From the NCBI RefSeq assembly GCF_003991155.1, contig NZ_CP031293.1: a stretch of DNA of 64,000 nucleotides; one strand, written 5' to 3'. Shown here piece by piece: positions 1-64,000 of the stretch. Both the position numbers and the translations under genes were made by a program. The notes under the pieces are model-generated. The model did not search any database and was not told the DNA's origin. It saw nothing but the letters and a program-made list of their open reading frames with translations. The DNA is from Escherichia coli. GTDB lineage: Bacteria; Pseudomonadota; Gammaproteobacteria; Enterobacterales; Enterobacteriaceae. Each line of letters begins with the position of its first letter. The stretch's first letter is position 1.

Positions 1-323
1 ATGCTGCTGTTGCCTTGTTAAAAGCTTTACCACGCTTTAAGGGTATAAATTTTGTATTCCCTGCCACCCGAAAGGGACAACTCTCGGATACGGCTTTGCT
101 GGCAGTCCTAAAGCGAATGGGATACACCGATTTAACACAGCATGGGTTTAGATCGACATTCCGTGATTGGGCTGGTGAAACGACCAACTATCCGCGTGAG
201 GTAATTGAACATGCGTTAGCTCACCAGTTGGCAGATAAGGCAGAGGCTGCGTATCAACGTGGGACATTATGGCCTAAGCGGGTGGCGTTGATGGATGAAT
301 GGACGGGGTTTTGTGTTTCTTAG
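1..323 (+). CDS. Tyrosine recombinase (phage-type integrase), C-terminal fragment; 5' end lies upstream of the window
   Basis: ORF 15..323 is open to the window edge; translation carries catalytic-domain motifs (HGFRSTF, REVIEHALAH) typical of lambda/P4-type integrases. Confidence 0.7.
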   Translation, partial: AAVALLKALPRFKGINFVFPATRKGQLSDTALLAVLKRMGYTDLTQHGFRSTFRDWAGETTNYPREVIEHALAHQLADKAEAAYQRGTLWPKRVALMDEWTGFCVS

Positions 324-386
324 AAGTTCTAATTAGCTACAAATAGTCCCCGCCCTTTATGAACTGACACCATAAATTCTTAATGA

Positions 387-914
387 TTGTATAAGATTTA
401 TCAATTTAGAGTAATATACGACAGAAACGTTTCACATGAATATGCTGTTTTTAAGGAGAAAAATGAAACGAGTAAACTGGACTGGTTCAATAACGTAGAA
501 AATCGCCCACATCCTTGGGAAGGTATGGGGCTGACATGGTTGACAACAGCACTAAATGTCCCTGATGTAAAAGCAGCTATTAATTTTTACACTGAAGTAA
601 TGAAGATGGTGGTAATTTCTGAACTTGAGGGTGATGGTGGTGATGTATTATTTGCTCGTATCCGTTACCGTGGCACAAACTTCACCATAAATAAGGAAGG
701 ATGGGATTCCGACCTGAAAAGCCCAAATACTTCGGGAGCTATGCCTCCCTTTATTTTTTATATGTATGTAGATGATATGATCACTCTGGTAAATGAAATG
801 GTTGAAGCTGGCTCGACTGTTCTAAATGAACCTGCTGAAATGTTCTGGGGTGATTTAAAAGCCCGTGTGAAAGACCCATTTGGTTTTATCTGGGATATAG
901 CACAGAAACTGTAA
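387..914 (+). CDS. VOC/glyoxalase-like family protein (start uncertain: TTG at 387 or ATG at 525)
   Basis: C-terminal WGDLKARVKDPFGFIWDI resembles glyoxalase/bleomycin-resistance fold proteins; no good RBS at either start; a strong AGGAGA-ATG at 463 is out of frame. Confidence 0.4.
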   Translation: MYKIYQFRVIYDRNVSHEYAVFKEKNETSKLDWFNNVENRPHPWEGMGLTWLTTALNVPDVKAAINFYTEVMKMVVISELEGDGGDVLFARIRYRGTNFTINKEGWDSDLKSPNTSGAMPPFIFYMYVDDMITLVNEMVEAGSTVLNEPAEMFWGDLKARVKDPFGFIWDIAQKL

Positions 915-972
915 AGAAATCGTCAGATCATCGTTCAACTCCTCTTTTCGGTTAAAGTAGGCTGTTGAAATC

Positions 973-1016
973 AAAATGCACAACACATTTAATTCTTACT
1001 ATGTCGTGCATTTTTG
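973..1016 (+). terminator. Possible intrinsic terminator between convergent genes
   Basis: Imperfect hairpin aaaatgcacaac ... gtcgtgcatttt followed by T-run at 1011-1015; loop is long. Confidence 0.3.
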
Positions 1017-1056
1017 ATTCAAATAATTAATACAAAATCAATTCTGTATACTACTT

Positions 1057-2520
1057 TTATTTACATGCATATAACCTTCTGAAATTACTATAACAGTGCT
1101 CGTTCTTACTACCACTACAACGTTGTTCATCATATTCAGCGATTAAAGTTCCAGATATATAACCAAACTGAGGGCTATACGTTGACCCCGGACAGGCACA
1201 TGTCCCTGTATCACTATTCGGTATTACACACTTATATCCAGATACTTGATCGGTTATTGTTATAAAAATACCTTTCAGGCCATCACCACTTGCTGTCTGC
1301 CATTTACCACTGACACACGATAACACTCGGCCTGTACTGTCTCGCCCCACCAGACCATTAGGCGTACATTTCGCATTTAACGTTGCCTGACCATTTAAAT
1401 GGAGATATTCACCTGCTTTGATCCTGCCAGTTGATTCAATTGTTCCATTGGATTTTATCGTTCCGGCGGTAAGATTACCTGACGCATAAATATTACCCGC
1501 ATTGTTCATGTAAGCTTTAACTGTTTTACCGGTTCCTACACCAACAGTCCCTGACGCATACAAGTCATAGGTGCGAACACCGCCAGCCCAGCCAGCTGGC
1601 AGATCGTTTGGATTAAGTCCGTTCGTGGCAATACGACTACCAAATCTCGCCAGACCTGTTGTTGAAAGCGTATTCAGATAAGTATCGGATTTTACCTTCA
1701 GGTTGTTGTTGATATTTACAGGACCATTAAGGGTAGATGTTCCACCCACAGTCAGATCTGATGCAACAGACGCATTACCCGTGGTTTTCAGTGCTCCGGT
1801 TGTTGTTGTCCCTGATGCCGTCATATCTTTGATGTTTTTGATGCTCTTACCACCAAGATTCAGATCACCCGTCATCGGCAACGTTCCATCACGGCGCAGA
1901 TAAACAGAATACATTGAAGAGTTATACCCCACGCGGTAAGCCAGCAATCCACCACCCGTAATATTGCTGTAGCTGTTAGAGTTCTCACTCCACTGACCAC
2001 CATAGCCGGAAGCTATCTTGGTGTTTCTGCTCATCCCACCATCAACACCTGCCGCCTGAACCGCTTTACCTAACAGGTCATAACGAATACGACCACCTTC
2101 TTCCCACGGGCTGGCGGTTGTTATAAGGCCGTTAATGACATAATCAGGCGCTGTTCCTGAACGCTTTAACACAATCTTATAGGATGCTTTTTGCGCGTTA
2201 GTTCCTGTATAGCCTACAGGCAACAGACCTTCATTAATTAACGTCTGGTAAGTGATTTCACAACCAGCAGCCGAACATGTTCTTGGCCCCGGATCGCTAC
2301 TTTGATTGTTGGATGATGACAGTGTGGAAATCTTGTCATATCGAATACTGATATAGCGGTTAACCGCTTCACCAAGCTGTTTAATCTGTGTTCCAACATT
2401 ATCTGCTAATACCGCTTCCTGATTGTTTCGCATATCCTGAAACTTCATAAAAGCGATAAGCGTTCCAATACCTAAAACAATACTGACTTCCAGTAAGGTA
2501 AATCCTTTATTCTTTATCAT
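1057..2520 (-). CDS. pilV: Type IVb minor pilin / tip adhesin, PilV-like
   Basis: N-terminus [17 protein letters not shown] matches the type IV prepilin processing/hydrophobic motif (G|FTLLE); large Gly/Thr/Ser-rich body as in R64-type PilV; GGAGA RBS before ATG at 2520; directly downstream of pilS. Confidence 0.65.
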
Positions 2521-2572
2521 AATTATCTCCCTGTTTTGGCAATAAGAAAGAAAAGGGCTTACGCCCTCTTCA

Positions 2573-3130
2573 TTAAATAGACGTGAAAACTAATGTATTA
2601 CTTGTGGCATTCGTACATGCTGCTGCCGTAGCTGCCACATCGAGTGTTCCTCCTGCGGCTTTAACAACCTTGGTTCCAACCGTGGTAATGTAGAAATTAC
2701 CTGCTGCCGCTGTCGCAATCTTCACACATTCCGCTGCTGGCACATTATCGTATGTGATAGTGAAAGAAGAGCCAGCCGCTGATGATGGTCCTGTAGCTGT
2801 AGCAGCCAGCGTCACATTACCTTTAAAGGCATTAATGGGTTTAGCTGCCGTTCCTGACCCACTTAACATATTGTCAGGGAAGATTTTTGCCTGAACAGCC
2901 ACAGTATTTGTCAGGCCAGTAAAGCTTGATGCCGACGTGTATAATGCTTTAACACCTGCCTGTATGGTGGCAATGTTATTGGATTCTGCCTGCGCTCTTT
3001 GTGAAGCCTGAACCTTGGGATAAACGATAAAAGCCGCTACCACTAATGCAGCAATGATGCCCAAAACAAGTAATAGTTCGAGTAGTGAGAAACCTTTCTT
3101 GCTTTTTCTTTTGTTATTTAATAAAACCAT
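2573..3130 (-). CDS. pilS: Type IVb major prepilin, PilS-like
   Basis: Long basic leader [13 protein letters not shown] followed by [16 protein letters not shown], characteristic of type IVb prepilins; GGAGA RBS 6 nt before ATG. Confidence 0.65.
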
Positions 3131-3525
3131 TATTATCTCCTTTTTTGTTTTAATGATAACTCCTGTTATAACGCTTCTCTCATATCTGGCAATAGAAAGA
3201 GCAAGATATATTTAACTCTATCTGACAGACGGATGAATTAAAAAAGGCAAAGATTTCTCTTTGCCTTCCGGGAGATTTAAAAACAACATTTGTTATCACT
3301 ACTACTGTCATTACTACTTCCTCATGGGATATTTATCATATCTGATAAAAAAGTAATAATGACGTTCACTACATAAAGATAAAAATTAACAGATTACTGG
3401 TCAAACAGAACGCATGATTGAAAAGGAAAAAATATTAATAAAGGATGATCCTGTGTTCTGTTCTTTTATATAGATAACAGATAATAATTAGATATCAATA
3501 CCTGAAGCAAAATAAATTTAGTTTT

Positions 3526-3831
3526 TTATTTTTGTCTTCCATCCATTTGCGCCAGAAACTTCCTGCCTGCTTTTATATACGTTATTTTTTCAATATCATT
3601 CAGGTCAGGAACTGAAAGCAAAATCCCCATAACGAGTTCTTTATCCACCTGTTCGATATCGCAATGCATAGCTTTAGCTACTTCCGCGCCAAGTATAATC
3701 TTTAGCCTTGTTTCAATTTTCTTTCGTTCTGATTTCTCCAGAGACTTAAGACGATTAAGTTCAAGCTGAGCAAAAGCAACCTTTTGCTTTAATGTTTTTT
3801 CTGTTCTTGATCTTTTACTTTCATCACTCAT
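3526..3831 (-). CDS. Hypothetical small coiled-coil protein; weak resemblance to TraD-like relaxosome accessory proteins
   Basis: ORF; start overlaps the stop of the upstream gene by 4 nt (ATGA-type coupling); motif RKKIETRLKIILGAEVAKA recalled as similar to Ti-plasmid TraD, from memory only. Confidence 0.35.
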   Translation of the reverse strand: MSDESKRSRTEKTLKQKVAFAQLELNRLKSLEKSERKKIETRLKIILGAEVAKAMHCDIEQVDKELVMGILLSVPDLNDIEKITYIKAGRKFLAQMDGRQK

Positions 3832-4193
3832 ACAACATCATCCTTACCCAAAAAATAGGCAAATACTTCATCCACGCCTTTCATGGCGAGAACATCACTG
3901 AACAGCAAAATAGACGTCGCCAGATTTCCCGCTTCATCTGATGGTATAGACCTAAAGAACTCCATCACTTCATCTTCCTCATGGTATCGTGTCATCGCAT
4001 CAACTTTTATTTGCCATTCACCAATAGCAAAAAGCGCTGCTTCAAAGCAGGACTGAAATCGTTCTATATCAGGGCCAAAATGATACGTTATTCCGTCTTT
4101 ATATTTCGCAATGAAAATTTCAGTAATTTTTTCATTACTGCTCTGAAGAATATGAGTATCAATAGTAAAAACATAGGCCAGTTGTGCATTCAT
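3828..4193 (-). CDS. Hypothetical protein, first gene of a two-gene overlapping operon
   Basis: Clean 121-aa ORF with AT-rich upstream region; no recognisable motif. Confidence 0.4.
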   Translation of the reverse strand: MNAQLAYVFTIDTHILQSSNEKITEIFIAKYKDGITYHFGPDIERFQSCFEAALFAIGEWQIKVDAMTRYHEEDEVMEFFRSIPSDEAGNLATSILLFSDVLAMKGVDEVFAYFLGKDDVV

Positions 4194-4497
4194 TTTTTAT
4201 CTCCTTTGGTTATCGAATATTATATTTAACTATCACCAAAGAGAAATGACGTCAAATTAATAAAGTATTAGATATTACAATAGGATGTTAATCCTAAATC
4301 TACAACCGAAAATATCCCTTGTAATTATCCTTAATTTAAAATATTAAGTCATATGCACAATAATTAGTGATTCACCTAATCCAAAATCATCAGTAATTAA
4401 GTTATCAAATGATACACATTATTCTAAAACTTCTTTTATCTATATCCTCCAACGTTTACAATGCATGATAGGCAACGATTAATCATAAGAGGTAATT

Positions 4498-5376
4498 ATG
4501 AATATTTTTAGTCTCATCACTGATCCTGATAATGCAGTTTATTTGACTTTAGATAAATTTTATAAAAAAACGCATAGACATTATCCCTATATTCAAAAGG
4601 TTAATGGAGAAACTAAAGCATACGCTTTATGCCCAAGATGTCACAATCCGGTCCTTTTGGTTAATAGAATAAATAATCAGACGGAATCAAAAACTTTATA
4701 TGCTAAGCATGTTAAACATGATGTAATGGGTATCGCATCATATTCTCAACAAGGTTATGATGATTGCTCACTTGCAAACCCAACAAATCTTGATGCAAAA
4801 ATCAAAAGAGATATTAATAATAAATCAAATAATGAAATAAAAGATGCTGTTAAAAATTATTTCGATCTACTTATATACTCAATTGAATCACATATAGGCA
4901 TCAATTTTTCTGATTCCGTTTTAGCTCAAATGCTTGAGGATTTCAACGCTTGTGATGGACACCAGTATAGAGCGATTAACTTATATAATTTACCGTTATC
5001 ATTTGTCTACATCGCAAATGCTCAGGATCTTTACGGTTGTAGAGTAAACGGAAAAATCAAAGAAAATATAGATAAAAACTCAGAATCATTTATAACATCC
5101 GGTACAGAACTTTATGATAAGAGCCTGTATTATGTTAATAGAAAGAAAGGCAGTCCTTATAATAAAATCCTGTTTTATTTCTCTAATCATACCATTTCGA
5201 CAGAAAATGATGATGAATCGGTAATGTTATATATTGTAGAAAAAAAACAGGATCAGACTATAGATTCAGCAAAAATACTCTATAAAGAAAAAATATATTT
5301 TGATGGCACATATTTTTTTAATACTATGAAAAAAAGAGCACGGCTAAACGATTTAGCAAAATCAATTATTCAATAG
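4498..5376 (+). CDS. Hypothetical protein with Cys/His motif (CPRCHNPV ... HVKHD), possible zinc-ribbon or HNH-like
   Basis: 292-aa ORF, very AT-rich, Lys/Asn-rich; divergent from the 3526-4193 operon. Confidence 0.45.
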   Translation: MNIFSLITDPDNAVYLTLDKFYKKTHRHYPYIQKVNGETKAYALCPRCHNPVLLVNRINNQTESKTLYAKHVKHDVMGIASYSQQGYDDCSLANPTNLDAKIKRDINNKSNNEIKDAVKNYFDLLIYSIESHIGINFSDSVLAQMLEDFNACDGHQYRAINLYNLPLSFVYIANAQDLYGCRVNGKIKENIDKNSESFITSGTELYDKSLYYVNRKKGSPYNKILFYFSNHTISTENDDESVMLYIVEKKQDQTIDSAKILYKEKIYFDGTYFFNTMKKRARLNDLAKSIIQ

Positions 5377-5379
5377 TAT

Positions 5380-5688
5380 TTATTCTGGAATGCTAATTAT
5401 TTTTGATAACGGCTGGTTTAATACCAGCTTTATCAAGTCGATAGATATTGATGATGTATCAAATTGTTCCAACTCATACTCTGCAAAAGGTAAATCGCCG
5501 ACCACTTTTATATTCCCCATTATCTTTCCCAGAATATCACAAAATTCTTGATCTGTTTTTGGTTTTTCAATCAATCCTAAATCCAGTAACTTTTGATATT
5601 CAAATAATGCTCTAAGTGTTGCATTTTCCCAAAAAGTAAATTCCTGAAAATATGTTCCGTCTTCATATCTAGATTTTCTAAACTCCAT
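5380..5688 (-). CDS. Hypothetical protein
   Basis: 102-aa ORF convergent with 4498-5376; no recognisable motif. Confidence 0.35.
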   Translation of the reverse strand: MEFRKSRYEDGTYFQEFTFWENATLRALFEYQKLLDLGLIEKPKTDQEFCDILGKIMGNIKVVGDLPFAEYELEQFDTSSISIDLIKLVLNQPLSKIISIPE

Positions 5689-5989
5689 TATATCTCCTTA
5701 TGTTAATTATTATACATGGAGTAATACAATTATTCTCATCAGTCAAATCATAAAATTATAATAAATTCCATGAGTGGGTAAAGCTCAGTAGAAAAATAAA
5801 ATAGTGCAACGCATGTGATAGTATTTACTAACCAAAAACATCTGACACTCTCCGCGTTACTTATTTTTGCGCATTCGTGATTTTATTTTCACCTATCAAT
5901 TTTTAACTCTATTTTTCAATCTCAACCTGTGAATTGTGCAACACATAACACTCTCTGTTTTATTGGTTTTTTTCATCAAATTTAGCTAT

Positions 5990-6036
5990 CCCGCCTTACG
6001 GCGGGAATAATTAATACCTCTTTTGCCCTTACGGGC
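5990..6036 (+). other. Candidate oriT: two GC-stem hairpins sharing a TTAC loop
   Basis: cccgcc-ttac-ggcggg (5990-6005) and gccc-ttac-gggc (6025-6036), about 300 bp upstream of the relaxase gene; relaxase genes usually sit next to their oriT. Confidence 0.3.
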
Positions 6037-10952: not shown

Positions 10953-10966
10953 TATGTGTATATATA

Positions 10967-55961: not shown

Positions 55962-55980
55962 AATAGGAAGGAGTGGAATA

Positions 55981-56274: not shown

Positions 56275-56299
56275 TTGTATACTACTATGATGATGACTC

Positions 56300-56810: not shown

Positions 56811-58030
56811 ACGAGGTACTGGAGAGCGAGACACATCAGCAGCAACAGCATGGCCGGGTGGCGTCGCGTGGACACAAAGAATGGCGACACTCAACGCACC
56901 GGATTAACCCGGACACTGGCAAGCCGGAGGAAGGGAAATTTGTCCGGGTGGTCAACGCGCACGGTATCACCTGGAAGTACGATATTAACGGTCGTCTGGT
57001 GGAGAAGCTGGTCGATAAAGGTGGCTATCGCCCTCTCCAGTGGCGTTACAAATGGGATTCACGCAGCCAGTTGACCGGGCTGGAAACACCGGATGGTGAA
57101 CGCTGGGAGTATAAATACGACCCGTTCGGCAGGCGCATCAGCAAACGCTGTACCAGCCACGATAAACCCGGTATGGATTTTCACTGGAACGGCGACCAGT
57201 TGACGGAGGAAATTCCGGTTGGTGTGGATGGCAAACCGGAAGACGAAAACGCCATCCGCTGGATATACGAGCCGGGAGATTTCACGCCGTTTGCGCGTTA
57301 TGAGAAGGGGCAACTGAATTATGCGGTGACGGACACGGTTGGACGAGTACAGGAACTGCTGACCGAAGACGGCCTGATTGTCTGGAAAGGCAAGCAGCAG
57401 CTATGGGGACGTGAGGAAGGCATCAATAAGGGCGATGCACCCACCTGTCGGTTACGTTTTCCGGGGCAGTATGAGGACACAGAATCGGGACTGTACTATA
57501 ACCGGTTCCGGTACTATGATTGCGGGACGGGGCAGTATATCTCTTCAGATCCGATTGGGCTGAGAGGGGGAATAAAACCATATGGCTATGTTCATAGTCC
57601 ATTAAATTATATTGACCCATTAGGTTTAGCTAACGCTAAAGTTATAGATAATGTTTTGCATATTGTGGATAAATTTGGAGTAAATGGGGCTGCTCCTGAT
57701 ACTGCAGCATCCAGAGAATTGGCTGAGTTTGTAAAAAGATGGAACGAGCAGATAGTGGCGAATGGTGGTTCAATGGCCAGACGTTCTGTTTGTAAAGAAG
57801 TCAGAAAAGCAGCAAGTGAAGCCGCCGCTGCTGAGAGAAAACTTAACCCAAGTTTATATGCTAATGGTGAAGTGGCGGGGCATATTCCAGATGTTGGATG
57901 GGGTGGAAAAATTGATGGTCCGTTTATGCCGTTAAGTCCAAAAGTAAATTCTTATATTGGTGGGTTAACTCAAGCAGTGCCTGTTGGTACAACTTATACA
58001 TCGGTAAGAATAGTGGACATTATACTATGA
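56807..58030 (+). CDS. Orphan Rhs C-terminal region with alternative toxin domain
   Basis: Rhs core ending in PYGYVHSPLNYIDPLGL followed by a distinct 139-aa C-terminus; GTG start, no own promoter evident. Confidence 0.6.
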   Translation: MNEVLESETHQQQQHGRVASRGHKEWRHSTHRINPDTGKPEEGKFVRVVNAHGITWKYDINGRLVEKLVDKGGYRPLQWRYKWDSRSQLTGLETPDGERWEYKYDPFGRRISKRCTSHDKPGMDFHWNGDQLTEEIPVGVDGKPEDENAIRWIYEPGDFTPFARYEKGQLNYAVTDTVGRVQELLTEDGLIVWKGKQQLWGREEGINKGDAPTCRLRFPGQYEDTESGLYYNRFRYYDCGTGQYISSDPIGLRGGIKPYGYVHSPLNYIDPLGLANAKVIDNVLHIVDKFGVNGAAPDTAASRELAEFVKRWNEQIVANGGSMARRSVCKEVRKAASEAAAAERKLNPSLYANGEVAGHIPDVGWGGKIDGPFMPLSPKVNSYIGGLTQAVPVGTTYTSVRIVDIIL

Positions 58031-58554
58031 AAAAATTAAAAGAATTGATTAACGATATTTTGGTTGATTTAAAAATAAATATAACGGAATTACCTGTCAC
58101 TTTACACAGCCATGATAAAGTACCCACGCTAAAAAAAGATTACTATAGAAATCTTAGCCCTATGCTAAAGGTTAGATTTGGTATGTTCTCTAGTTGGAAG
58201 AATGCAACACATGGGGATTGGCTTTCAATAGAAGAGATGATGGAAATTTGGCGTGATGATTTGGTAATAAATGACCGATTGTGGCGAATTAAGGAGAATC
58301 AGATAGCTGCTCGTAATAATTGGGACAATGATGCTTCTTCGCTTTTCAAAAATAATAGATTATCACTTTTTGCTGGAAGTGAGTCTACCTATGAACGAAT
58401 ATATCTGCTTTGGTTAGATAGTGAAATTGAACCTGAGATATGGGTATATGACTGCAATGGTGAATCGAGATATAAAAATCTAGAGTCTTATTTAAATGCA
58501 TATATAAATGACGATGTTAGTGCTAGTAATGAGTCATGGAGAGCCAAATACTGA
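58027..58554 (+). CDS. Putative immunity protein for orphan toxin 1
   Basis: AT-rich ORF overlapping the toxin stop (ATGA). Confidence 0.5.
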   Translation: MKKLKELINDILVDLKINITELPVTLHSHDKVPTLKKDYYRNLSPMLKVRFGMFSSWKNATHGDWLSIEEMMEIWRDDLVINDRLWRIKENQIAARNNWDNDASSLFKNNRLSLFAGSESTYERIYLLWLDSEIEPEIWVYDCNGESRYKNLESYLNAYINDDVSASNESWRAKY

Positions 58555-58777
58555 CGCAGCGACAGTCACCCAGTTAGAGTGAGAGCATGAAAAATATGTT
58601 TTTATACAATATTTTATCGCTATATTTTTGTCATCTGTTTTTGCGCGAAAATCACTCGACAATTTGCATGATATAACCAATTACTCATTAAATTTACCTG
58701 CAGCCTAGTAGGGCTGTCTGACCACCTGGCAGATAGCGGACCATGCCCCGCTGACATTTGAGCATGACCTGCGCGGC

Positions 58778-60310
58778 ATGGAAACCTCCCGACGCAGCGG
58801 GGCCGGATTTTACCAGACGCTGGCTTACACGCGCACAGGGATGCCAGCGAAGCAGAATGCCGGGGACCACCAGGCCGGGCCGCATGAGCGAAATAAAAGC
58901 CTGGAGCGGGAATGGCTTTACGACAAAGCGTATAACCTGACCGCAATCGCCGACTCGCTGCGCGGCTCCATGTTCAACACCATCACGGCAAACGACCAGA
59001 TAAGCCACGCCACCTGGACGGGTGATTCCAGCCAGTTTCCGCTGTGCGAGGAGCTGTTCACTTACGATAAAAACCTGAACATCACCCGCCGCCAGACCCG
59101 TGTGAATAACGTCCTGGAAAGCGAAACGCACCAGCAACAGCAGCATGGCCGGGTGATATCCAGTGAGCATGAAGGCTGGCGGCACTCAACGCACCGCATC
59201 AATCCGCAGACAGGAAAACCGGAAGAAGGGAAATTTGTCCGGGTGGTGAATGCCCATAACATCACCTGGAAATACGATGTTAACGGCAGGCTGGTACAGA
59301 AGCTGGTCGATAAAGGTGGCTACCGCCCTCTCGAATGGCGCTACAGATGGGATGCAAGAAGCCAGCTAACCGGACTGGAAACCCCGGATGGCGAACGCTG
59401 GGAATATAAATACGACCCGTTTGGCAGGCGCATCAGCAAACGCTGCACCAACCGCGACAAACCCGGCATGGATTTTCACTGGAACGGCGACCAGCTAACG
59501 GAGGAAATTCCGGTTGGCGTTAACGGTAAACCGGAAGACGAAAACGCCATCCGCTGGATATACGAGCCGGGAGATTTCACGCCGTTTGCGCGTTATGAGA
59601 AGGGGCAACTGAATTATGCGGTGACGGACACGGTTGGACGAGTACAGGAACTGCTGACCGAAGACGGCCTGATTGTCTGGAAAGGCAAGCAGCAGCTATG
59701 GGGACGTGAGGAAGGCATCAATAAGGGCGATGCACCCACCTGTCGGTTACGTTTTCCGGGGCAGTATGAGGACACAGAATCGGGACTGTACTATAACCGG
59801 TTCCGGTACTATGATTGCGAGACGGGGCAGTATATCTCTTCAGATCCCATAGGATTACTTGGGGGGATAAATCCTTATGGATATGTTCGTAACTCGCTGG
59901 AATTGATTGACCCTTGGGGGCTAGACAGTAAACGCGCTCGACTCCTCAAACAAAAAGGATTCCAAGAACATCATATTATCAGCGATAAAAACAGCTTAAC
60001 CAAAAACCATCCATTGTTGAAGGCCGCGGCATACGACCTACAGAAAATGAAAAACAAGATTTTCTTACCTACAAAATGTGAACTTCATGCAACTCGATCC
60101 ATTCATAAAGGGAGGCATCAAAAAAAGGTAAGTGAAAACCTGGCAAATGAAATGGACAAAGTGTTAGAACACGGGAGAAAACATGGGTGGACGCAAAAAC
60201 AATACAGTGACGCACTTGACGAAATAGTTGCTAAAGAAAGAGCCCTCTTGAAATCTGGCCATAGAGCTTTAAATAAAAACAGACGTGCATGGTCTGTTTT
60301 ACTAACTTAA
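58778..60310 (+). CDS. Orphan Rhs C-terminal region 2 with HNH-superfamily-like nuclease toxin domain
   Basis: Homology to main rhs begins about 58712; ends in PYGYVRNSLELIDPWGL then a C-terminus containing FQEHHIISDK ... HATRSIHKGRH. Confidence 0.6.
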   Translation: METSRRSGAGFYQTLAYTRTGMPAKQNAGDHQAGPHERNKSLEREWLYDKAYNLTAIADSLRGSMFNTITANDQISHATWTGDSSQFPLCEELFTYDKNLNITRRQTRVNNVLESETHQQQQHGRVISSEHEGWRHSTHRINPQTGKPEEGKFVRVVNAHNITWKYDVNGRLVQKLVDKGGYRPLEWRYRWDARSQLTGLETPDGERWEYKYDPFGRRISKRCTNRDKPGMDFHWNGDQLTEEIPVGVNGKPEDENAIRWIYEPGDFTPFARYEKGQLNYAVTDTVGRVQELLTEDGLIVWKGKQQLWGREEGINKGDAPTCRLRFPGQYEDTESGLYYNRFRYYDCETGQYISSDPIGLLGGINPYGYVRNSLELIDPWGLDSKRARLLKQKGFQEHHIISDKNSLTKNHPLLKAAAYDLQKMKNKIFLPTKCELHATRSIHKGRHQKKVSENLANEMDKVLEHGRKHGWTQKQYSDALDEIVAKERALLKSGHRALNKNRRAWSVLLT

Positions 60311-60322
60311 CAGAGAAAATAT

Positions 60323-60880
60323 ATGTATAGATGGACAATCCCAGAACAATATGCCAATAAGTATATTGGAGAATATCAATATGAATCTTTTGATTACTTA
60401 CTTTTTTCTCATAGCACACCAATTGAAAGAGTTGAGAATATCAATCCAGTCATTATCTACGCGATGCCCGATGAAATGATAAATAAATATGATTGCTTGC
60501 CAAATAGTTCATTGATCCCCGTAGTTAATGAACGACTAAAGGACTTCCTGGAAACACATGCCAAAGGTAATGTTGAGTTTCATAAAATAGACCTTCACAC
60601 GAACAATGGACTCAAAGATGGTTTTTATCTTTTGAATACACTCACAAAACTACCGTTAATTGATATGCAGCACTCTCATTGCCAGTATATTCCCGGAACA
60701 ACAGCGATCATGGGGTTTGAACAGGTTTTTTTTATTGAAGAGCCTCCGGAAGATTTTTGCATTGCACGATGCGCAGAATATTCATCTTATCTTATGTTAT
60801 CTGATTCATTAGTAAAAAAAATGAAAAAAGAAAAATTTAAAGGAATTTCATATTCGAAAGTTCCTGTTCACCGAGGTTAA
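60323..60880 (+). CDS. Putative immunity protein for orphan toxin 2
   Basis: 185-aa AT-rich ORF 13 bp after the toxin stop. Confidence 0.5.
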   Translation: MYRWTIPEQYANKYIGEYQYESFDYLLFSHSTPIERVENINPVIIYAMPDEMINKYDCLPNSSLIPVVNERLKDFLETHAKGNVEFHKIDLHTNNGLKDGFYLLNTLTKLPLIDMQHSHCQYIPGTTAIMGFEQVFFIEEPPEDFCIARCAEYSSYLMLSDSLVKKMKKEKFKGISYSKVPVHRG

Positions 60881-60964
60881 AATAATTGGACATATAACAA
60901 ATATATTAAATCGGTAGCATCTCCAGGGAAGGATCATCGTATTCGTATGCCGTAGGCACGCCGT

Positions 60965-61357
60965 AATCTGGTATAACGAAGACGGCCTGCTCACCCGCAG
61001 CACCGACCCGCTCGGTCGGGAAGAGATTACGGTATGGGAGAACACGCAACTCCAGTCACGCACCGATGCACTGGGGCGTAAAACAGCGTATGAATACAAC
61101 GATGAGGGCGATATCTGGCACGTCGCCCTGCCGGGTGGTTACAGTCTGTACTATGACTACAACGACGCCGGACAGTTAACCCGCCTGACCCTGCCGGGCG
61201 ACCAGGTATGGCAGTGGGATTACGACGATAAGGGCAGCATGGTCTGCCTGACCGACCCGCAGGGCCGGAAACAGCAGTTCAGCTACTGCGCACAGGGGGA
61301 TTTACTGGCGCGGATTATGCCGGGCGGAGCCACCTGGCGCTGGAGCCATGACGCCCC
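60965..61357 (+). repeat. Rhs core remnant (duplicate of main rhs about 53196-53590)
   Basis: About 390 bp nearly identical to the internal rhs segment, no start codon. Confidence 0.7.
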
Positions 61358-61507
61358 AGGGAACAGGGAAAGATCACGTAACGCTGCTTTTTTGTACTAA
61401 ATAATTCGCATTTTATGTTTAAAAATTGAGATATTCCTCATTACCTAAAGCTTTTTTTTATTGCTTATACATGATCAAATACTCCTTACATAATTAAGGA
61501 GAACAAA

Positions 61508-62644
61508 ATGGAACTTAAAAAATTGATGGAACATATTTCTATTATCCCCGATTACAGACAAGCCTGGAAAGTGGAACATAAATTATCGGATATTCTACTG
61601 TTGACTATTTGTGCCGTTATTTCGGGTGCAGAAGGCTGGGAAGATATAGAGGATTTTGGGGAAACACATCTCGATTTTTTGAAGCAATATGGTGATTTTG
61701 ATAATGGTATTCCTGTTCACGATACCATTGCCAGAGTTGTATCCTGTATCAGTCCTGCAAAATTTCACGAGTGCTTTATTAACTGGATGCGTGACTGCCA
61801 TTCTTCAGATGATAAAGACGTCATTGCAATTGATGGAAAAACACTCCGGCATTCTTATGACAAGAGTCGCCGCAAGGGTGCGATTCATGTCATTAGTGCG
61901 TTCTCAACAATGCACAGTCTGGTCATCGGACAGATCAGGACGGATGAGAAATCCAATGAAATTACAGCTATCCCTGAACTTCTTAACATGCTGGATATTA
62001 AAGGAAAAATCATCACAACTGATGCGATGGGTTGCCAGAAAGATATTGCAGAGAAGATACAAAAACAGGGCGGTGATTATTTATTCGCTGTAAAAGGAAA
62101 TCAGGGGCTGCTTAATAAAGCCTTTGAGGAAAAATTTCCACTGAAAGAATTAAATAATCCAGAGCATGACAGTTACGCCATTAGTGAAAAGAGTCACGGC
62201 AGAGAAGAAATCCGTCTTCATATTGTTTGCGATGTCCCTGATGAACTTATTGATTTCACGTTTGAATGGAAAGGACTGAAGAAATTATGCGTGGCAGTCT
62301 CCTTTCGGTCAATAATAGCAGAACAAAAGAAAGAGCCAGAAATGACGGTCAGATATTATATCAGTTCTGCTGATTTAACCGCAGAGAAGTTCGCCACAGC
62401 AATCCGAAACCACTGGCACGTGGAGAATAAGCTGCACTGGCGTCTGGACGTGGTAATGAATGAAGACGACTGCAAAATAAGAAGAGGAAACGCAGCAGAA
62501 TTATTTTCAGGGATACGGCACATTGCTATTAATATTTTGACGAATGATAAGGTATTCAAGGCAGGGTTAAGACGTAAGATGCGAAAAGCAGCCATGGACA
62601 GAAACTATCTCGCGTCAGTCCTTGCGGGGAGCGGGCTTTCGTAA
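61508..62644 (+). CDS. ISAs1-family transposase (H-repeat-associated protein)
   Basis: [18 protein letters not shown]...[20 protein letters not shown] matches H-rpt/ISAs1 transposases found beside rhs loci. Confidence 0.85.
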
Positions 62645-62645
62645 T

Positions 62646-62762
62646 CTTGCCCTGGGGTTTTGGGCTAACGAAATGGAAAATTTAACATAAATTTAATTCA
62701 TGCTCTTGCCCTGATTTCGGGCTGACATAATAGTGAAGATTTTAACACAAATTTAATTCATG
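62646..62762. repeat. Two imperfect tandem direct repeats of about 57 bp
   Basis: cttgccctg...ttaaca(t/c)aaatttaattcatg occurs twice back to back after the transposase stop. Confidence 0.5.
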
Positions 62763-62813
62763 TCCTCATCCCAGTATAGACTTTAATTTTATTTTTTTGA
62801 TAAGGTACTACAT

Positions 62814-63647
62814 ATGGCTTTCGTTTCTGCGTTAGTTAATTTGCGTTATGATTTAAACAAATATATTGTAGAGTTACGACGCATTTCAAATCTTGCCGCG
62901 ACATTTCTTATGGAAGATGATTTTATTAAGAATTTCTATCTTAATGAAGTTGAAATAAGCATAAATAATTATAATTTTAGATTCAATAACGAGCGAAACC
63001 CATTCAAGCAAAGGGAAATAGTTTTTGAACTTAAAGAAGAAGTTGAGTTGGAAAAAAAAGAATATGATATATTAAGAATGAAAGATCATGTTACTTATAT
63101 GGTAACTGATATGTTTGAAGAACAAGGCGTGTTAAAATATGTAAAAATATTTGGAGGGGTTGCTACAGGAGGAATAGAACTTTTCACTGCCTATGGGTAT
63201 TATCAATTGGGTAAAACATTACACCTTAGAAGATTACGTGGGATAGCAATTGTTTTTGCTTCTTATGGCGTTGATAATATATGGGAGTCAGTCTCTCCTT
63301 TGATTTTTGAAGAAGCGAATGCAGGGCCTCTTAGACGTGTTATTCGGGGAATTGCTGGTGAGTTTGGAATAAGTGAAGATGATTCTGATTTAGGGTATAG
63401 TTTTGTTGAATTTTCATTGTCCTTATATAATACTTTTAATGCAAGAAAATTGTTTCCGAATGAAAATAGGTTAGTTATAGGTGTGGGAAGAAAAAGGCCA
63501 GGGACTGGTAGGCTTTTTAATAATGTAAGCTGGGATTATGCATCTAAATGGTCAAAAATGAATACAAATATGAAGATTTGGAATTTAGGGTATAGCGCTT
63601 ATAAAGCCAAACTGGAATTTTATGATGAGAAATATAAATTTAAATAA
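62814..63647 (+). CDS. Hypothetical protein
   Basis: 277-aa AT-rich ORF. Confidence 0.35.
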   Translation: MAFVSALVNLRYDLNKYIVELRRISNLAATFLMEDDFIKNFYLNEVEISINNYNFRFNNERNPFKQREIVFELKEEVELEKKEYDILRMKDHVTYMVTDMFEEQGVLKYVKIFGGVATGGIELFTAYGYYQLGKTLHLRRLRGIAIVFASYGVDNIWESVSPLIFEEANAGPLRRVIRGIAGEFGISEDDSDLGYSFVEFSLSLYNTFNARKLFPNENRLVIGVGRKRPGTGRLFNNVSWDYASKWSKMNTNMKIWNLGYSAYKAKLEFYDEKYKFK

Positions 63648-63723
63648 TATTTCACATTACGTACTTTTAAAAAAGTATAATTATTAGCCGGTTAATTCAA
63701 TTATATAACACAGCCTCATTGCG

Positions 63724-63966
63724 CTAAAATAAAATTCGTATACCAAGTTTTATCAGCTTTAACTGAGTGATGATCTTTACATTATTGTTTTTTGCATCTG
63801 AGCATAAAATCATGACACTAAATATTGAAAACACAGCAGACATAAAGAAAAAAGCGGCCCCTCTTTCCAAGAGGATTCCGAGAATGAAAGCAAAAAATGC
63901 CACTGCCGGAAACCATAGCGACAAAGCGTCTTTTGCAGAGTCATATATCACATCTATTAGTGTCAA
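63724..63966 (-). CDS. Hypothetical small membrane protein (doubtful)
   Basis: 80-aa ORF with two hydrophobic segments. Confidence 0.2.
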   Translation of the reverse strand: MTLIDVIYDSAKDALSLWFPAVAFFAFILGILLERGAAFFFMSAVFSIFSVMILCSDAKNNNVKIITQLKLIKLGIRILF

Positions 63967-64000
63967 ATCTTTAGTTAAATTTGGATGAAGAGTTTTTTAA

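What the first reader, a model, noticed from the sequence alone, without database searches (positions are those of the whole stretch)
1..64000. Strong compositional mosaicism marks at least four acquisition units
Very AT-rich blocks (about 3.2-19.3 kb; the rhs toxin/immunity tips at 55.6-56.3, 57.6-58.6 and 59.9-60.9 kb; 62.7-64 kb) alternate with GC-rich blocks (T6SS core 27.8-55.5 kb) and near-core composition at serU-mtfA-asnT. This is consistent with serial insertion at the tRNA hotspot and with H-NS-type silencing of the AT-rich cargo.
Basis: seen in the sequence. Interest (0 to 1): 0.3.

Follow-up and report, generated by a model that had tools for sequence, protein, structure and literature searches.

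The report
Two tRNA islands explain GC mosaic
The strong GC/AT patchwork is real, but it comes from two ordinary mobile islands inserted next to two neighbouring tRNA genes of E. coli, and the GC blocks only partly match the pieces that were actually acquired separately.

Summary
The syntenic 28 kb of K-12 is one homogeneous segment (0.469).

The window is an E. coli chromosome with 1.16 kb of core (serU-mtfA-asnT) between two att-bounded islands, both cut by the window edges.

- **serU island:** this is the known ~22-kb island (integrase, pilV/pilS, MobQ, RepL, Hfp plus H-NST). Here it carries a Thoeris system in a cargo slot.
- **asnT island:** this 45.6-kb island holds a P4-type integrase, IS3, a complete T6SS-1-type cluster, a PAAR-Rhs gene with two displaced tip/immunity cassettes, and ISAs1 copies.

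GC blocks are not acquisition units.

- **T6SS composition:** its GC-richness and internal GC decline are shared by all relatives.
- **T6SS ancestry:** the real junction (~37.1 kb, E. coli-like versus Citrobacter/Lelliottia-like) is invisible to GC.
- **serU cargo slots:** these are barely visible in GC.
- **Rhs tips:** only these map one-to-one onto separately acquired cassettes.

H-NS silencing is plausible but untested, and the island encodes its own H-NS antagonist.

This is an ordinary, well-understood phenomenon with some moderately interesting specifics.

The parts
1..20860 (.). serU genomic island. The window holds most of it; the full element runs from about -1061 to 20860 (21.9 kb, GC 0.379).
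   Evidence: A 14-nt direct repeat of the serU 3' end lies at -1075..-1062 and at 20861-20874. The island is absent from K-12. It is syntenic with the ~22.5-kb islands of ATCC 25922 and ECO21. The family occurs in 835 of 5426 genomes.
1..323 (+). 3' end of the serU-island tyrosine integrase. The gene starts 898 bp left of the window, next to zinT.
   Evidence: Annotation. NCBIfam integrase domain, 4.5e-41. It is 98.3% identical to the ATCC 25922 serU-island integrase and 28.6% to the asnT integrase.
1057..3130 (-). Remnant type IV pilus genes: pilV (with the Shufflon_N domain) and a PilS/bundlin-like pilin.
   Evidence: Pfam Shufflon_N 3.9e-14 and PilS 6.1e-28. No shufflon-type repeat set was found nearby.
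6338..7819 (+). MobQ/MobA-MobL relaxase, the mobilisation module. It forms a local GC bump of 0.447.
   Evidence: Pfam MobA_MobL 8.1e-54; partition segment.
10955..13363 (-). Cargo slot carrying Thoeris type I: ThsB (TIR) at 11002-11613 and ThsA (SIR2-SLOG) at 11630-13066. GC is 0.320.
   Evidence: PADLOC ThsB 3.3e-84 and ThsA 8.3e-203, full length. The segment is absent from both related islands, which carry other genes at this position.
16023..16568 (+). RepL-like replication/maintenance protein.
   Evidence: Pfam RepL 1.9e-5.
17360..17764 (+). Full-length H-NS paralogue (Hfp/H-NSB type).
   Evidence: Pfam Histone_HNS_N 1.7e-24 plus Histone_HNS 2.8e-17. It is 94% identical to the ATCC 25922 homologue and 61% to K-12 H-NS. 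Literature: PMC7074111.
18283..18525 (-). Truncated H-NS with the N-terminal oligomerisation domain only (H-NST type, an anti-H-NS protein).
   Evidence: Pfam Histone_HNS_N only, 3.3e-11. It is 96% identical to the ATCC 25922 homologue. Function of the family per PMC7074111.
20861..22017 (.). The only core chromosome in the window: serU (20861-20950, -), mtfA (21044-21841, +) and asnT (21942-22017, +). GC is 0.467.
   Evidence: ARAGORN. 99.6% identity to K-12 over 1161 bp. GC.
22018..64000 (.). asnT genomic island. The window holds most of it; the full element runs 22018 to ~67661 (45.6 kb, GC 0.502).
   Evidence: A 15-nt direct repeat of the asnT 3' end lies at 22002-22016 and 67662-67676, followed by the K-12 asnU downstream flank and cbl. 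The whole right half is present in only 28 of 5426 genomes.
22184..23446 (+). P4-type tyrosine integrase of the asnT island.
   Evidence: Pfam Arm-DNA-bind_3, Phage_int_M and Phage_integrase. It is 98.3% identical to the integrase at the next Asn-tRNA.
23739..24996 (-). IS3-family element that truncates a relE/parE toxin gene (23570-23738).
   Evidence: Homology to the second Asn island ends exactly at 23739. A 99.76% inverted twin lies at 77995-79252. In strain 980-2 the same IS3 abuts position 57343, marking a 32.3-kb adjacent deletion. The Rfam isrC hit at 24806-24928 lies inside it.
25989..26780 (+). yafT-like gene, the left marginal gene of canonical aspV T6SS-1 loci.
   Evidence: 76% aa identity to both yafT alleles and 80-81% nt identity.
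27341..37100 (-). T6SS-1-type cluster, E. coli-like portion (hcp, vasL, tssM, tssA, vasI, most of tssH).
   Evidence: vasL-tssH are 83-97% aa identical to the aspV A/B1-type allele, against 63-88% for tssA, vasI and tssH in Citrobacter and Lelliottia. hcp-a is the exception, at only 55%/77% aa to the two aspV alleles. Nucleotide identity to E. coli aspV alleles is mostly 0.88-0.96 from 32.9 to 37.0 kb, with one 300-nt dip to 0.75.
37101..51540 (.). T6SS-1-type cluster, non-E. coli-like portion: 5' end of tssH, dotU, tssK, tssJ, tagH, tssG, tssF, tssE, tssC and tssB (-), then hcp, vgrG and DUF2169 (+).
   Evidence: aa identity to the best Citrobacter/Lelliottia-type locus versus the E. coli aspV A/B1 allele: tssK 93 vs 61, tssG 91 vs 56, tssF 87 vs 59, tssC 95 vs 77, tssB 90 vs 60, vgrG 81 vs 53. 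No other E. coli genome exceeds 90% nt identity. The nt identity switch is at ~37.0-37.2 kb.
46946..47627 (.). AT-rich (0.339) divergent intergenic region between tssB and hcp; the likely promoter and regulatory region.
   Evidence: GC. Five of the 12 promoter-like sites in the 20-kb T6SS block lie at 47.07-47.33 kb.
51543..55961 (+). Full-length PAAR-like Rhs effector. The core is GC-rich (0.569). The core/tip junction motif PLGWADPFGL lies at 55554-55583, followed by a 125-aa AT-rich tip.
   Evidence: Pfam Tox-PAAR-like 1.3e-32. Motif and GC shift. The partition break falls at 55600.
55584..56274 (+). Tip 1 plus a putative immunity gene (55981-56274). GC is 0.349.
   Evidence: No Pfam hit.
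56378..58554 (+). Displaced ('orphan') rhs cassette 1: a core 3' fragment, junction motif PLNYIDPLGL at 57599-57628, a tip, and an immunity gene at 58027-58554.
   Evidence: The core fragment is 81% identical to 54326-55559. GC is 0.551 before the junction and 0.369 after.
58711..60880 (+). Displaced rhs cassette 2: a core 3' fragment, an AHH-nuclease tip, and an Imm11 immunity gene at 60323-60880.
   Evidence: The core fragment is 89.8% identical to 54371-55546. AHH 7.7e-17 and Imm11 6.2e-11. GC is 0.558 before the junction and 0.366 after.
60961..61356 (+). Isolated rhs mid-core fragment. It accounts for the 450-bp GC-rich (0.591) blip and is truncated next to ISEc1.
   Evidence: 92.7% identical to 53192-53586; partition segment.
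61389..62655 (+). ISEc1 (ISAs1 family, the 'H-repeat' of Rhs elements).
   Evidence: Annotation. A 97% direct copy lies at 64176-65441, so the pair brackets the DUF4225 gene.
62814..63647 (+). AT-rich DUF4225 gene (GC 0.318) between the two ISAs1 copies.
   Evidence: Pfam DUF4225 9.7e-33; GC3 0.234.

Best explanation
The window is an E. coli chromosome segment. Only 1.16 kb of it (serU-mtfA-asnT) is core. That core is flanked by two independent, att-bounded genomic islands, each inserted by its own tyrosine integrase into the 3' end of a different tRNA gene.

**Left island.** This is a member of the known ~22-kb serU island family, a ROD21/EARL-related integrative mobilisable element. It has an AT-rich backbone: integrase, pilV/pilS remnant, TraD, MobQ, RepL, Hfp and H-NST. 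Several cargo slots are exchanged between relatives, and here one slot holds Thoeris.

**Right island.** This 45.6-kb asnT island consists of:
- a P4-type integrase/relE module
- an IS3
- a complete T6SS-1-type cluster with its yafT-like marginal gene
- a PAAR-Rhs effector followed by two displaced tip/immunity cassettes and a core fragment
- two ISAs1 copies around an AT-rich gene

**Sources of the GC mosaic.** There are four superimposed causes:
1. The AT-rich mobile-element backbone and cargo.
2. The intrinsically GC-rich composition of the T6SS-1 family, including its internal decline toward tssE/tssB.
3. The classical Rhs dichotomy of a GC-rich conserved core against AT-rich, laterally exchanged tip plus immunity.
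4. IS elements.

**How the units were assembled.**
- Shown: site-specific integration, from the att repeats and the empty K-12 site.
- Shown by phylogenetic incongruence and comparative alignment: homologous recombination at conserved flanks. This covers the rhs core 3' ends, the island backbone and the T6SS genes.
- Shown: IS-mediated insertion and deletion, from strain 980-2.

**Inferred only.** AT-rich parts are bound by H-NS-family proteins, and the island's own Hfp/H-NST modulate this.
For: **Integration.**
- K-12 has the empty arrangement.
- There is one distal att copy per island, with none internal.
- A GC change-point falls within 10 nt of the serU 3' end.

**serU island.**
- Backbone synteny with ATCC 25922 and ECO21, with four window-specific slots.
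- Domain hits for MobQ, RepL, PilV/PilS, TraD and both H-NS forms.
- Thoeris HMM hits.
- Published description of the serU island with H-NST and Hfp (PMC7074111).

**T6SS.**
- Gene order is identical to aspV T6SS-1.
- GC and the GC3 gradient are shared by both E. coli alleles; the high-to-low GC pattern is shared by ten clusters of other species.
- Per-gene and sliding-window identity show a switch at ~37.1 kb.
- The right half is unique to 28 genomes.
- The canonical aspV site is cleanly empty in this clone.

**Rhs.**
- Junction motifs coincide with the GC breaks.
- The 1.2-kb core repeats are 81-90% identical.
- AHH/Imm11 pair.
- The C-terminal displacement model (PMC2935791).

**IS activity.**
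- The IS3 edge equals the end of homology, and a twin copy exists.
- IS3-adjacent 32.3-kb deletion in strain 980-2.
Against: - No donor with near-identical sequence was found for either T6SS half. The best is 0.75-0.89 nt for the right half and 0.91-0.96 for the left. The direction and timing of the recombination are therefore unknown.
- All 28 genomes carrying the asnT island are one clone. Presence/absence within E. coli cannot separate its sub-modules.
- The five clone-related genomes lacking the T6SS: the one examined (980-2) is a deletion derivative, not an independent state; the other four were not examined.
- The att repeats are short (14-15 nt), and excision was not demonstrated.
- The serU-island integrase sits at the end distal to the tRNA, which differs from the usual P4-type layout.
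- H-NS binding is not measured here.
Confidence: 0.85

Rival explanations
1. Each compositional block is a separate acquisition unit from a donor of matching GC, with at least four units inserted serially at one tRNA hotspot. The AT-rich ones are kept silent by H-NS.
For: - Large GC contrasts with sharp edges.
- tRNA genes and integrases are present.
- The rhs tips really are independently exchanged cassettes (PMC2935791).
- AT-rich blocks carry six times more promoter-like sites.
- H-NS/StpA filaments cover AT-rich islands in CFT073 (PMC9765446).
Against: - T6SS GC-richness and its inner sub-block recur in all relatives, including the widespread aspV clusters.
- The true ancestry junction at ~37.1 kb has no GC signal.
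- The serU-island swap slots are only weakly resolved by GC.
- Two different tRNAs and unrelated integrases are involved, with no internal att remnants.
- The island encodes an H-NS antagonist.
Confidence: 0.25
2. The GC differences mainly reflect different ages of acquisition (amelioration). On this view the T6SS is an old resident drifting toward host GC, while the AT-rich parts are recent.
For: - The tssE-tssB and vgrG portion is near host GC (0.48-0.50).
- T6SS cluster GC differs widely between the genera sampled, from 0.51 in Buttiauxella to 0.62 in E. asburiae.
Against: - The same high-to-low gradient is present in every host examined. The left, more E. coli-like half is the more GC-rich one, the opposite of what amelioration predicts.
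- The serU-island family keeps 0.376-0.379 GC in divergent (92-96% identical) lineages.
Confidence: 0.12
3. The mosaic is ordinary gene-to-gene compositional noise of an E. coli chromosome and carries no information.
For: - The flanking core is itself heterogeneous (segments 0.30-0.53).
- It has a similar number of change-points per 10 kb, 2.15 against 2.34.
Against: - Amplitude is nearly double (sd 0.092 against 0.052).
- K-12's syntenic 28 kb is a single segment.
- GC3 tests give p = 4e-8 to 1e-3.
- delta* is 70-102 against 23-33 for controls.
Confidence: 0.02

Closest known systems
serU island of uropathogenic E. coli CFT073/536 (Williamson & Free 2005; reviewed in PMC7074111), related to ROD21/EARL islands
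   Same: - Same insertion site (serU 3' end) and same size (~22 kb).
- Same backbone order: int, pilV, pilS, TraD, MobQ, RepL, DUF4756, Hfp, DUF6404, H-NST, AlpA-like HTH, DUF6387.
- Hfp and H-NST are 94% and 96% identical to the ATCC 25922 (tcpC-type) copies.
   Different: - The cargo differs. There is no tcpC/TIR/macro module after mobQ, and the slot after DUF4755-lipoprotein holds Thoeris type I.
- A VOC-family gene follows the integrase.
- I compared with ATCC 25922 and ECO21, not with CFT073 itself.
E. coli T6SS-1 cluster at aspV-yafT...yafV
   Same: - Identical gene order from the yafT-like gene through hcp, vasL, tssM...tssB, then hcp, vgrG and Rhs/PAAR, with ISAs1 at the margin.
- Same overall GC (0.56) and the same GC3 gradient.
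   Different: - It sits on an Asn-tRNA integrase island, while the aspV site in this clone is empty.
- It is a chimera. vasL-tssH resemble the E. coli A/B1-type allele. tssK-tssB, vgrG and DUF2169 resemble Citrobacter sedlakii, Lelliottia and an unnamed gut Enterobacteriaceae.
- It is found in only 28 of 5426 genomes.
P4-type integrase islands at Asn-tRNA genes (for example the High Pathogenicity Island at asnT; PMC10562709)
   Same: - Integration into the 3' end of an Asn-tRNA, with the integrase directly downstream of the tRNA and a short direct repeat at the far end.
- Several Asn-tRNA genes in the same region are occupied.
   Different: - The integrase is only 53% identical to the one occupying asnT in ATCC 25922 and ECO21.
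- The cargo is a T6SS/Rhs module, not yersiniabactin genes.
Rhs elements with C-terminal displacement arrays and H-repeat (Jackson et al. 2009, PMC2935791)
   Same: - GC-rich core, with a junction motif of the type I know as PxxxxDPxGL, and an AT-rich tip plus immunity gene.
- Downstream dissociated tips each retain a core fragment (a GC peak).
- An ISAs1/H-repeat lies at the end.
   Different: Nothing essential. Tips 1 and 2 have no Pfam family.
Defence-system-carrying integrative mobilisable elements at tRNA hotspots in E. coli (Hochhauser et al. 2023, PMC10121019)
   Same: - A relaxase-only element at a tRNA carries a defence system in a variable slot.
- Relatives carry Drt5, SMODS, restriction enzymes and NACHT proteins.
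   Different: It additionally encodes an H-NS paralogue and an H-NS antagonist. I did not check whether this hotspot is in that paper's tables.

Membership tests
tRNA-integrated genomic island | Insertion at the 3' end of a tRNA gene, with a direct repeat of that end at the distal boundary | tested here: met
   serU: 14 nt at 20861-20874 and at -1075..-1062. asnT: 15 nt at 22002-22016 and 67662-67676. Chance expectation is 0.01-0.04.
tRNA-integrated genomic island | Encodes a tyrosine integrase | tested here: met
   Pfam/NCBIfam integrase domains in both. The serU-island integrase lies at the end distal to the tRNA.
tRNA-integrated genomic island | Absent from a reference genome with an intact site | tested here: met
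   K-12 MG1655 has zinT-yodB-serU-mtfA-asnT-yeeJ.
tRNA-integrated genomic island | Excision to a circular form / regeneration of attB | not testable with these tools
   Needs PCR across attP/attB or read-level evidence.
serU island (H-NST/Hfp island) | Located at serU and ~22 kb long | tested here: met
   21.9 kb between the att copies. Relatives are 22.5 kb.
serU island (H-NST/Hfp island) | Encodes a full-length H-NS paralogue (Hfp/H-NSB) and a truncated N-domain-only H-NS (H-NST) | tested here: met
   Pfam domain architecture. 94% and 96% identity to the tcpC-type island copies.
serU island (H-NST/Hfp island) | H-NST antagonises H-NS, and Hfp forms heteromers with H-NS | not testable with these tools
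   Known for CFT073/536/EPEC proteins (PMC7074111). Not measured for these alleles.
Integrative mobilisable element | Relaxase present, with no complete conjugative apparatus | tested here: met
   MobA_MobL 8.1e-54. Only pilV, pilS and TraD remnants are annotated.
Integrative mobilisable element | Functional oriT and mobilisation by a helper plasmid | not tested
   No oriT search was made, and transfer needs an experiment.
Thoeris type I | Adjacent ThsA (SIR2-SLOG) and ThsB (TIR) genes | tested here: met
   PADLOC ThsA 8.3e-203 over the full profile and ThsB 3.3e-84. The genes are 16 bp apart.
Thoeris type I | Protects against phage | not testable with these tools
   Needs phage challenge.
E. 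coli T6SS-1 | All 13 core genes (tssA-M) in the T6SS-1 order | tested here: met
   Annotation. Collinear with two aspV clusters.
E. coli T6SS-1 | Chromosomal location between aspV and yafV | tested here: not met
   The cluster lies on the asnT island. aspV directly abuts yafV in the source genome.
E. coli T6SS-1 | Uniform ancestry with E. coli alleles | tested here: not met
   tssK-tssB, vgrG and DUF2169 are closer to Citrobacter/Lelliottia-type alleles.
Rhs C-terminal displacement array | A junction motif separates a conserved GC-rich core from a variable tip followed by an immunity gene | tested here: met
   PLGWADPFGL, PLNYIDPLGL and ...LIDPWGL. GC is 0.55-0.57 before the junction and 0.35-0.37 after. 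AHH/Imm11 pair.
Rhs C-terminal displacement array | Downstream dissociated tips retain a fragment of core homologous to the main gene | tested here: met
   Core 3' fragments of 1.18-1.24 kb at 81-90% identity.
H-NS xenogeneic silencing target | AT-rich relative to the host, with a high density of promoter-like sequences | tested here: met
   GC 0.30-0.38. 73 against 12 promoter-like sites per 20 kb, both at shuffle expectation.
H-NS xenogeneic silencing target | Occupied by H-NS and derepressed in an hns mutant | not testable with these tools
   Needs ChIP-seq and RNA-seq in this strain.

The most novel reading that the evidence does not exclude
The asnT island is an integrase-borne vehicle for a complete T6SS-1. 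In this clone it substitutes for the canonical aspV cluster, which is cleanly absent. The cluster is an inter-species chimera: a ~9-kb E. coli-like vasL-tssH patch sits inside a Citrobacter/Lelliottia-like cluster.

This would mean that whole T6SS-1 machines, and not only their effector modules, move between Enterobacteriaceae species and between tRNA loci as island cargo. They would then be repaired or remodelled by recombination with resident copies.
Probability: 0.35. Interest if true: 0.45.

Novelty: new member of a known kind. Interest (0 to 1): 0.3.

Why it matters
This is a useful caution for sequence-only scanning. Sliding-window GC found the foreign DNA and the rhs tips correctly. It would, however, have mis-drawn the acquisition units in three ways:
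- It split one T6SS operon along a family-wide gradient.
- It missed the real recombination junction in tssH.
- It missed the cargo swaps in the serU island.

Biologically the locus shows three things:
- The serU 'pathogenicity' island family acts as a carrier of exchangeable anti-phage cargo, and also brings its own H-NS paralogue and antagonist.
- A T6SS-1 can reside on an Asn-tRNA integrase island while its canonical site is empty.
- IS3 can delete the entire 32-kb weapon in one step.

None of this changes current understanding. It adds well-resolved examples.

Tried and rejected
1. **Greedy binary GC segmentation**. It missed bump-shaped blocks and was replaced by optimal partitioning. High penalties (30-45) merged the rhs tips.
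2. **IS3 inversion hypothesis.** I asked whether the two inverted IS3 copies (23739-24996 and 77995-79252) mark an inversion that would restore relE or the K-12 gene order. Reversing it reasoned from the coordinates restores neither, so I rejected it.
3. **The five clone genomes with the serU island but no T6SS.** I tried them as evidence that the islands were acquired independently. The one examined, strain 980-2, is an IS3-adjacent deletion derivative; the other four were not examined. Independence of the two islands therefore rests on about 15 other-lineage genomes and on the 835-genome family.
4. **aspV-derived att remnants.** I looked for them travelling with the T6SS module, or bounding the aspV island. 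None were found.
5. **Shufflon repeats near pilV.** None.
6. **tRNA genes next to the closest non-E. coli T6SS loci.** None within ±10 kb of tssF. The loci are too short to see their ends.
7. **Literature search for a T6SS at asnT.** Four papers, none relevant.
8. **Promoter-like site enrichment beyond composition.** None. Counts equal the shuffle expectation, so this supports the H-NS idea only through composition.
9. **Rfam.** Only the two tRNAs and an isrC-family hit inside IS3.

Full report
**1. Identity of the window**

The window matches complete E. coli chromosomes. It differs from NZ_CP041996.1 (2887820-2951819) at three bases. I used that record's RefSeq annotation. I also read 25 kb to the left and 35 kb to the right, because both large blocks run off the window.

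Yes. GC in 1-kb windows spans 0.297-0.616 with sd 0.092. The adjoining 23 kb of core (fliK to zinT) spans 0.372-0.565 with sd 0.052.

Optimal partitioning at a BIC-like penalty yields 15 segments.
- 3101 and 19651
- 27951 and 55600
- 55601-56300, 57601-58700 and 59951-60950
- 61401 onward

A single best split of the whole window falls at 20860/20861 on a 10-nt grid, the 3' end of serU. The syntenic 28 kb of K-12 remains one segment at 0.469. The 1.16-kb serU-mtfA-asnT core is 0.467.

At codon level:

| Gene set | Mean GC3 | p against 29 flanking core genes (mean 0.511) |
|---|---|---|
| serU-island genes | 0.336 | 3.7e-8 |
| T6SS genes | 0.611 | 1.3e-3 |
| Immunity/DUF4225 genes | 0.273 | 4.9e-5 |

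Karlin's delta* against core is 102 for the left block and 70-79 for the right blocks. Core controls score 23-33.

Two caveats apply.
- The flanking core has about as many change-points per 10 kb as the window (2.15 against 2.34). The amplitude is what is unusual.
There is a mobQ bump at 0.447, a 43.3-50.45 kb sub-block at 0.482, and a 450-bp GC-rich blip at 60951-61400.

**3. What is there: two att-bounded islands**

K-12 has zinT-yodB-serU-mtfA-asnT-yeeJ. Homology to K-12 is interrupted exactly at the tRNA 3' ends.

- The 14-mer TGGCGGAGAGAGGG (serU 3' end) occurs at 20861-20874 and once more at -1075..-1062, just before an integrase gene that starts 898 bp left of the window.
- The 15-mer CCAGTCAGAGGAGCC (asnT 3' end) occurs at 22002-22016 and again at 67662-67676. 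There it is followed by K-12's asnU downstream flank and cbl.
- Allowing one mismatch, no further copies exist inside either island. Chance expectation is 0.01-0.04.

The window therefore holds two single integrations. One is a 21.9-kb serU island (GC 0.379). The other is a 45.6-kb asnT island (GC 0.502). Their integrases are 28.6% identical.

**4. The serU island**

Its genes are:
- integrase and a VOC-family protein
- pilV (Shufflon_N domain) and a PilS/bundlin-type pilin
- TraD and a MobA/MobL relaxase
- several hypotheticals
- a TIR and a SIR2 protein
- RepL and DUF4756
- a full-length H-NS paralogue, DUF6404, and an N-domain-only H-NS
- an AlpA-type HTH protein and DUF6387

This is the published ~22.5-kb serU island of CFT073/536. 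That island encodes Hfp/H-NSB and the H-NS antagonist H-NST, and it is related to the ROD21/EARL islands (PMC7074111). The two proteins here are 94% and 96% identical to those of the tcpC-type island of ATCC 25922.

The family occurs in 835 of 5426 complete genomes, always chromosomal. I aligned the island to ATCC 25922 (tcpC, TIR and macro after mobQ) and to ECO21 (Drt5 after mobQ, DUF4238 and DUF6602 elsewhere). The backbone is conserved (GC 0.405). Four segments are specific to the window:

| Segment | Content | GC |
|---|---|---|
| 325-1053 | VOC | .368 |
| 4259-5795 | hypotheticals | .289 |
| 7652-9104 | hypotheticals | .340 |
| 10955-13363 | Thoeris | .320 |

The last is Thoeris type I (ThsA 8e-203, ThsB 3e-84). 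All three islands are ~22 kb at 0.376-0.379 GC. The real module boundaries are thus only faintly reflected in GC.

Defence systems on integrative mobilisable elements at tRNA hotspots are a known pattern in E. coli (PMC10121019).

**5. The asnT island**

*(a) Integration module.* A P4-type integrase is followed by a relE/parE gene truncated at 23739 by an IS3. The stretch from asnT through the integrase to relE' is 98.2% identical to the next Asn-tRNA island, and the identity ends at the IS3 edge. The IS3 has a 99.76% inverted twin 53 kb away.

*(b) T6SS.* A yafT-like gene is followed by a complete T6SS whose gene order is identical to the canonical aspV-yafT...yafV T6SS-1.

*(c) Composition of the T6SS.* The cluster's GC is 0.563. 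The two aspV alleles are at 0.557 and 0.564. GC3 declines from ~0.7 (tssM, tssH, dotU) to ~0.5 (tssE, tssB) in all three. The same high-to-low pattern (tssH-tagH against tssE-tssB) appears in ten clusters of other species: Citrobacter, Lelliottia, Buttiauxella, Enterobacter, E. whittamii and an unnamed gut Enterobacteriaceae. GC-richness and the inner 'sub-block' are therefore family traits. They are not marks of separate acquisition.

*(d) Ancestry of the T6SS.* Ancestry is nevertheless mosaic.
- vasL-tssH are 83-97% aa identical to the aspV A/B1-type allele. tssA, vasI and tssH are 63-88% identical to Citrobacter and Lelliottia (vasL and tssM lie outside the fetched foreign loci).
- For the right half, the figures below compare the best foreign allele with the same E. 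coli allele.

| Gene | Best Citrobacter/Lelliottia-type (% aa) | E. coli aspV A/B1 allele (% aa) |
|---|---|---|
| tssK | 93 | 61 |
| tssG | 91 | 56 |
| tssF | 87 | 59 |
| tssC | 95 | 77 |
| tssB | 86-90 | 60 |
| vgrG | 81 | 53 |

DUF2169 is 86% identical to the MGYG-HGUT-00110 copy. A 300-nt sliding comparison puts the switch at ~37.0-37.2 kb, inside the 5' part of tssH. The GC partition breaks at 41.5-43.3 kb instead. No other E. coli genome has more than 90% identity to 37.2-51.5 kb. Only 28 genomes, one clone, carry it.

*(e) The canonical site.* In this clone the aspV site is cleanly empty: dnaQ, tRNA-Asp, ~100 bp, then yafV. No aspV-derived att remnant travels with the module.

*(f) Rhs array.*
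- The PAAR-like Rhs gene (51543-55961) has a core at GC 0.569. Its junction motif PLGWADPFGL lies at 55554-55583, followed by a 125-aa tip and a small ORF at GC 0.349.
- Two downstream cassettes each carry a 1.2-kb core 3' fragment (81% and 90% identical to the main gene), a junction motif, a tip and an immunity gene. GC is 0.551 then 0.369 in the first, and 0.558 then 0.366 in the second.
- The last tip is an AHH nuclease with Imm11.
- The 450-bp GC-rich blip is a 92.7% copy of mid-core 53192-53586.

This is the textbook C-terminal displacement array. Laterally acquired tips displace older ones, and each dissociated tip is marked by a GC peak (PMC2935791).

*(g) Right margin.* ISEc1 and a 97% direct copy bracket the AT-rich DUF4225 gene.

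**6. Hotspot behaviour**

Beyond the window, the other Asn-tRNA genes carry a near-identical integrase plus an intact relE/antidote pair. They also carry an inverted Rhs with a DUF2169 fragment next to the IS3 twin, P4-like genes, and a pseudogenised integrase.

Relative to K-12, yodB and yeeJ-yeeN are missing, and cbl-nac now follows the asnT island. The region is a genuine multi-occupancy hotspot with secondary rearrangements. Inside the window, however, each tRNA has one insertion.

Strain 980-2, of the same clone, shows the decay route. Its IS3 abuts window position 57343, so 24997-57342 (the T6SS core plus the main rhs gene) has been deleted.

Distribution of the two islands:
- All 28 T6SS-positive genomes have the serU island at ≥99.9%.
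- Five more genomes have that island but not the T6SS. The one I examined (980-2) is a deletion derivative; the other four were not examined.
- About 15 genomes of other lineages have a 96-98% identical Thoeris-type serU island; those that also appear in the list (M-17, PG20180057, A33, MS20659, E1) carry a T6SS cluster only 74.7% identical to the right half.

The two islands are thus separable units.

**7. H-NS**

H-NS binding was not testable here.
- Consistent with the idea: the AT-rich blocks are at 0.30-0.38 GC. The serU island has 73 promoter-like sites per 20 kb against 12 in the T6SS block. Both counts equal their own shuffle expectation, so the effect is purely compositional. Five of the 12 lie in the AT-rich tssB/hcp intergenic region.
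- In CFT073, H-NS/StpA filaments cover 18% of genes. They are reported proximal to T6SS loci, and Hfp is a minor paralogue (PMC9765446).
- Complicating the idea: the island itself encodes Hfp and the antagonist H-NST. The cargo is therefore not simply a passive silenced target.

**8. Verdict**

'Serial insertion' does not describe the window itself, and H-NS silencing is plausible but untested.

In kind, everything here is known: the serU island, IMEs carrying defence systems, T6SS-1, Rhs displacement arrays and Asn-tRNA islands. Three specifics appear to be undescribed members or variants:
- Thoeris in the serU island.
- A chimeric T6SS-1 on an asnT integrase island, with an empty aspV site.
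- A one-step IS3 deletion of that T6SS.

They are of modest interest.

Noticed in passing
window 10955-13363: A complete Thoeris type I system (ThsB 11002-11613, ThsA 11630-13066) sits in a cargo slot of the serU 'pathogenicity' island. Relatives carry an HhH protein or DUF4238 at this position.
   Followed up: yes
L008 9854-12391 (ATCC 25922) vs L009 9523-11007 (ECO21) vs window 7652-9104: The slot just after mobQ holds tcpC plus a second TIR protein plus a macro-domain protein in ATCC 25922. In ECO21 it holds the antiviral reverse transcriptase Drt5. In the window it holds two hypotheticals. The 'virulence factor' TcpC thus occupies a slot that elsewhere holds anti-phage cargo.
   Followed up: partly
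window ~37000-37200 (5' part of tssH): Ancestry switch inside the T6SS operon. To the left it is mostly 0.88-0.96 nt identical to E. coli aspV alleles. To the right the best matches are Citrobacter/Lelliottia-type clusters (0.75-0.89). There is no GC signature.
   Followed up: yes
NZ_CP041996.1 3857801-3857976 (L092 42802-42977): The canonical T6SS-1 site is cleanly empty in this clone. tRNA-Asp (aspV) lies ~100 bp from yafV, with no yafT and no T6SS remnant.
   Followed up: yes
L089 38421-39677 (strain 980-2) vs window 24997-57342: A sister strain has lost 32.3 kb (the whole T6SS core and the main rhs gene) by a deletion starting exactly at the IS3 end. It keeps the distal orphan rhs cassettes.
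   Followed up: yes
L004 and window 64001-99000 (extended coordinates): Relative to K-12, yodB and yeeJ-yeeN are absent. cbl-nac now lies between the asnT island and another Asn-tRNA island. The Asn-tRNA after yeeO is an asnU/asnV hybrid context. The pathway (recombination between Asn-tRNA genes or between islands) was not resolved.
   Followed up: partly
window 61389-62655 and 64176-65441 (extended): Two 97%-identical ISAs1/ISEc1 copies in direct orientation bracket the AT-rich DUF4225 gene. This is a composite-transposon-like arrangement.
   Followed up: no
window 24806-24928 (-): A strong Rfam isrC hit (145 bits) lies inside the 5' end of the IS3 element. The 'sRNA' family here corresponds to an IS leader region.
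   Followed up: no
window 1-20000: Terminator-like hairpins are enriched in the serU island: 27 found against 11.6±3.1 in shuffles. In the T6SS block the count is 21 against 19.5±4.4. This suggests many short, separately terminated transcription units.
   Followed up: no
window 9488, 10131, 11214: The only three differences between the window and NZ_CP041996.1 cluster within 1.7 kb, around the lipoprotein, DUF4755 and ThsB genes.
   Followed up: no
window 13275-14314 (-): A ~320-aa ORF is annotated as frameshifted. It is conserved at 86.5% nt in the ATCC 25922 island and has no PADLOC family hit.
   Followed up: no
window 55584-55961 and 57629-58030: Two Rhs C-terminal tips (125 and 133 aa) and their downstream ORFs have no Pfam family. 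They are candidate uncharacterised toxin/immunity pairs.
   Followed up: partly
L090 2739-2951 (NZ_CP041996.1 922738-922950): The pheV-associated island of the same genome encodes an extra Hha paralogue (an H-NS co-regulator). This is another island-borne modulator of H-NS in this strain.
   Followed up: no
NZ_CP041996.1: Gene order shows most of the record runs opposite to K-12, while the serU region runs in the K-12 direction. This implies a large inversion around the terminus relative to K-12.
   Followed up: no
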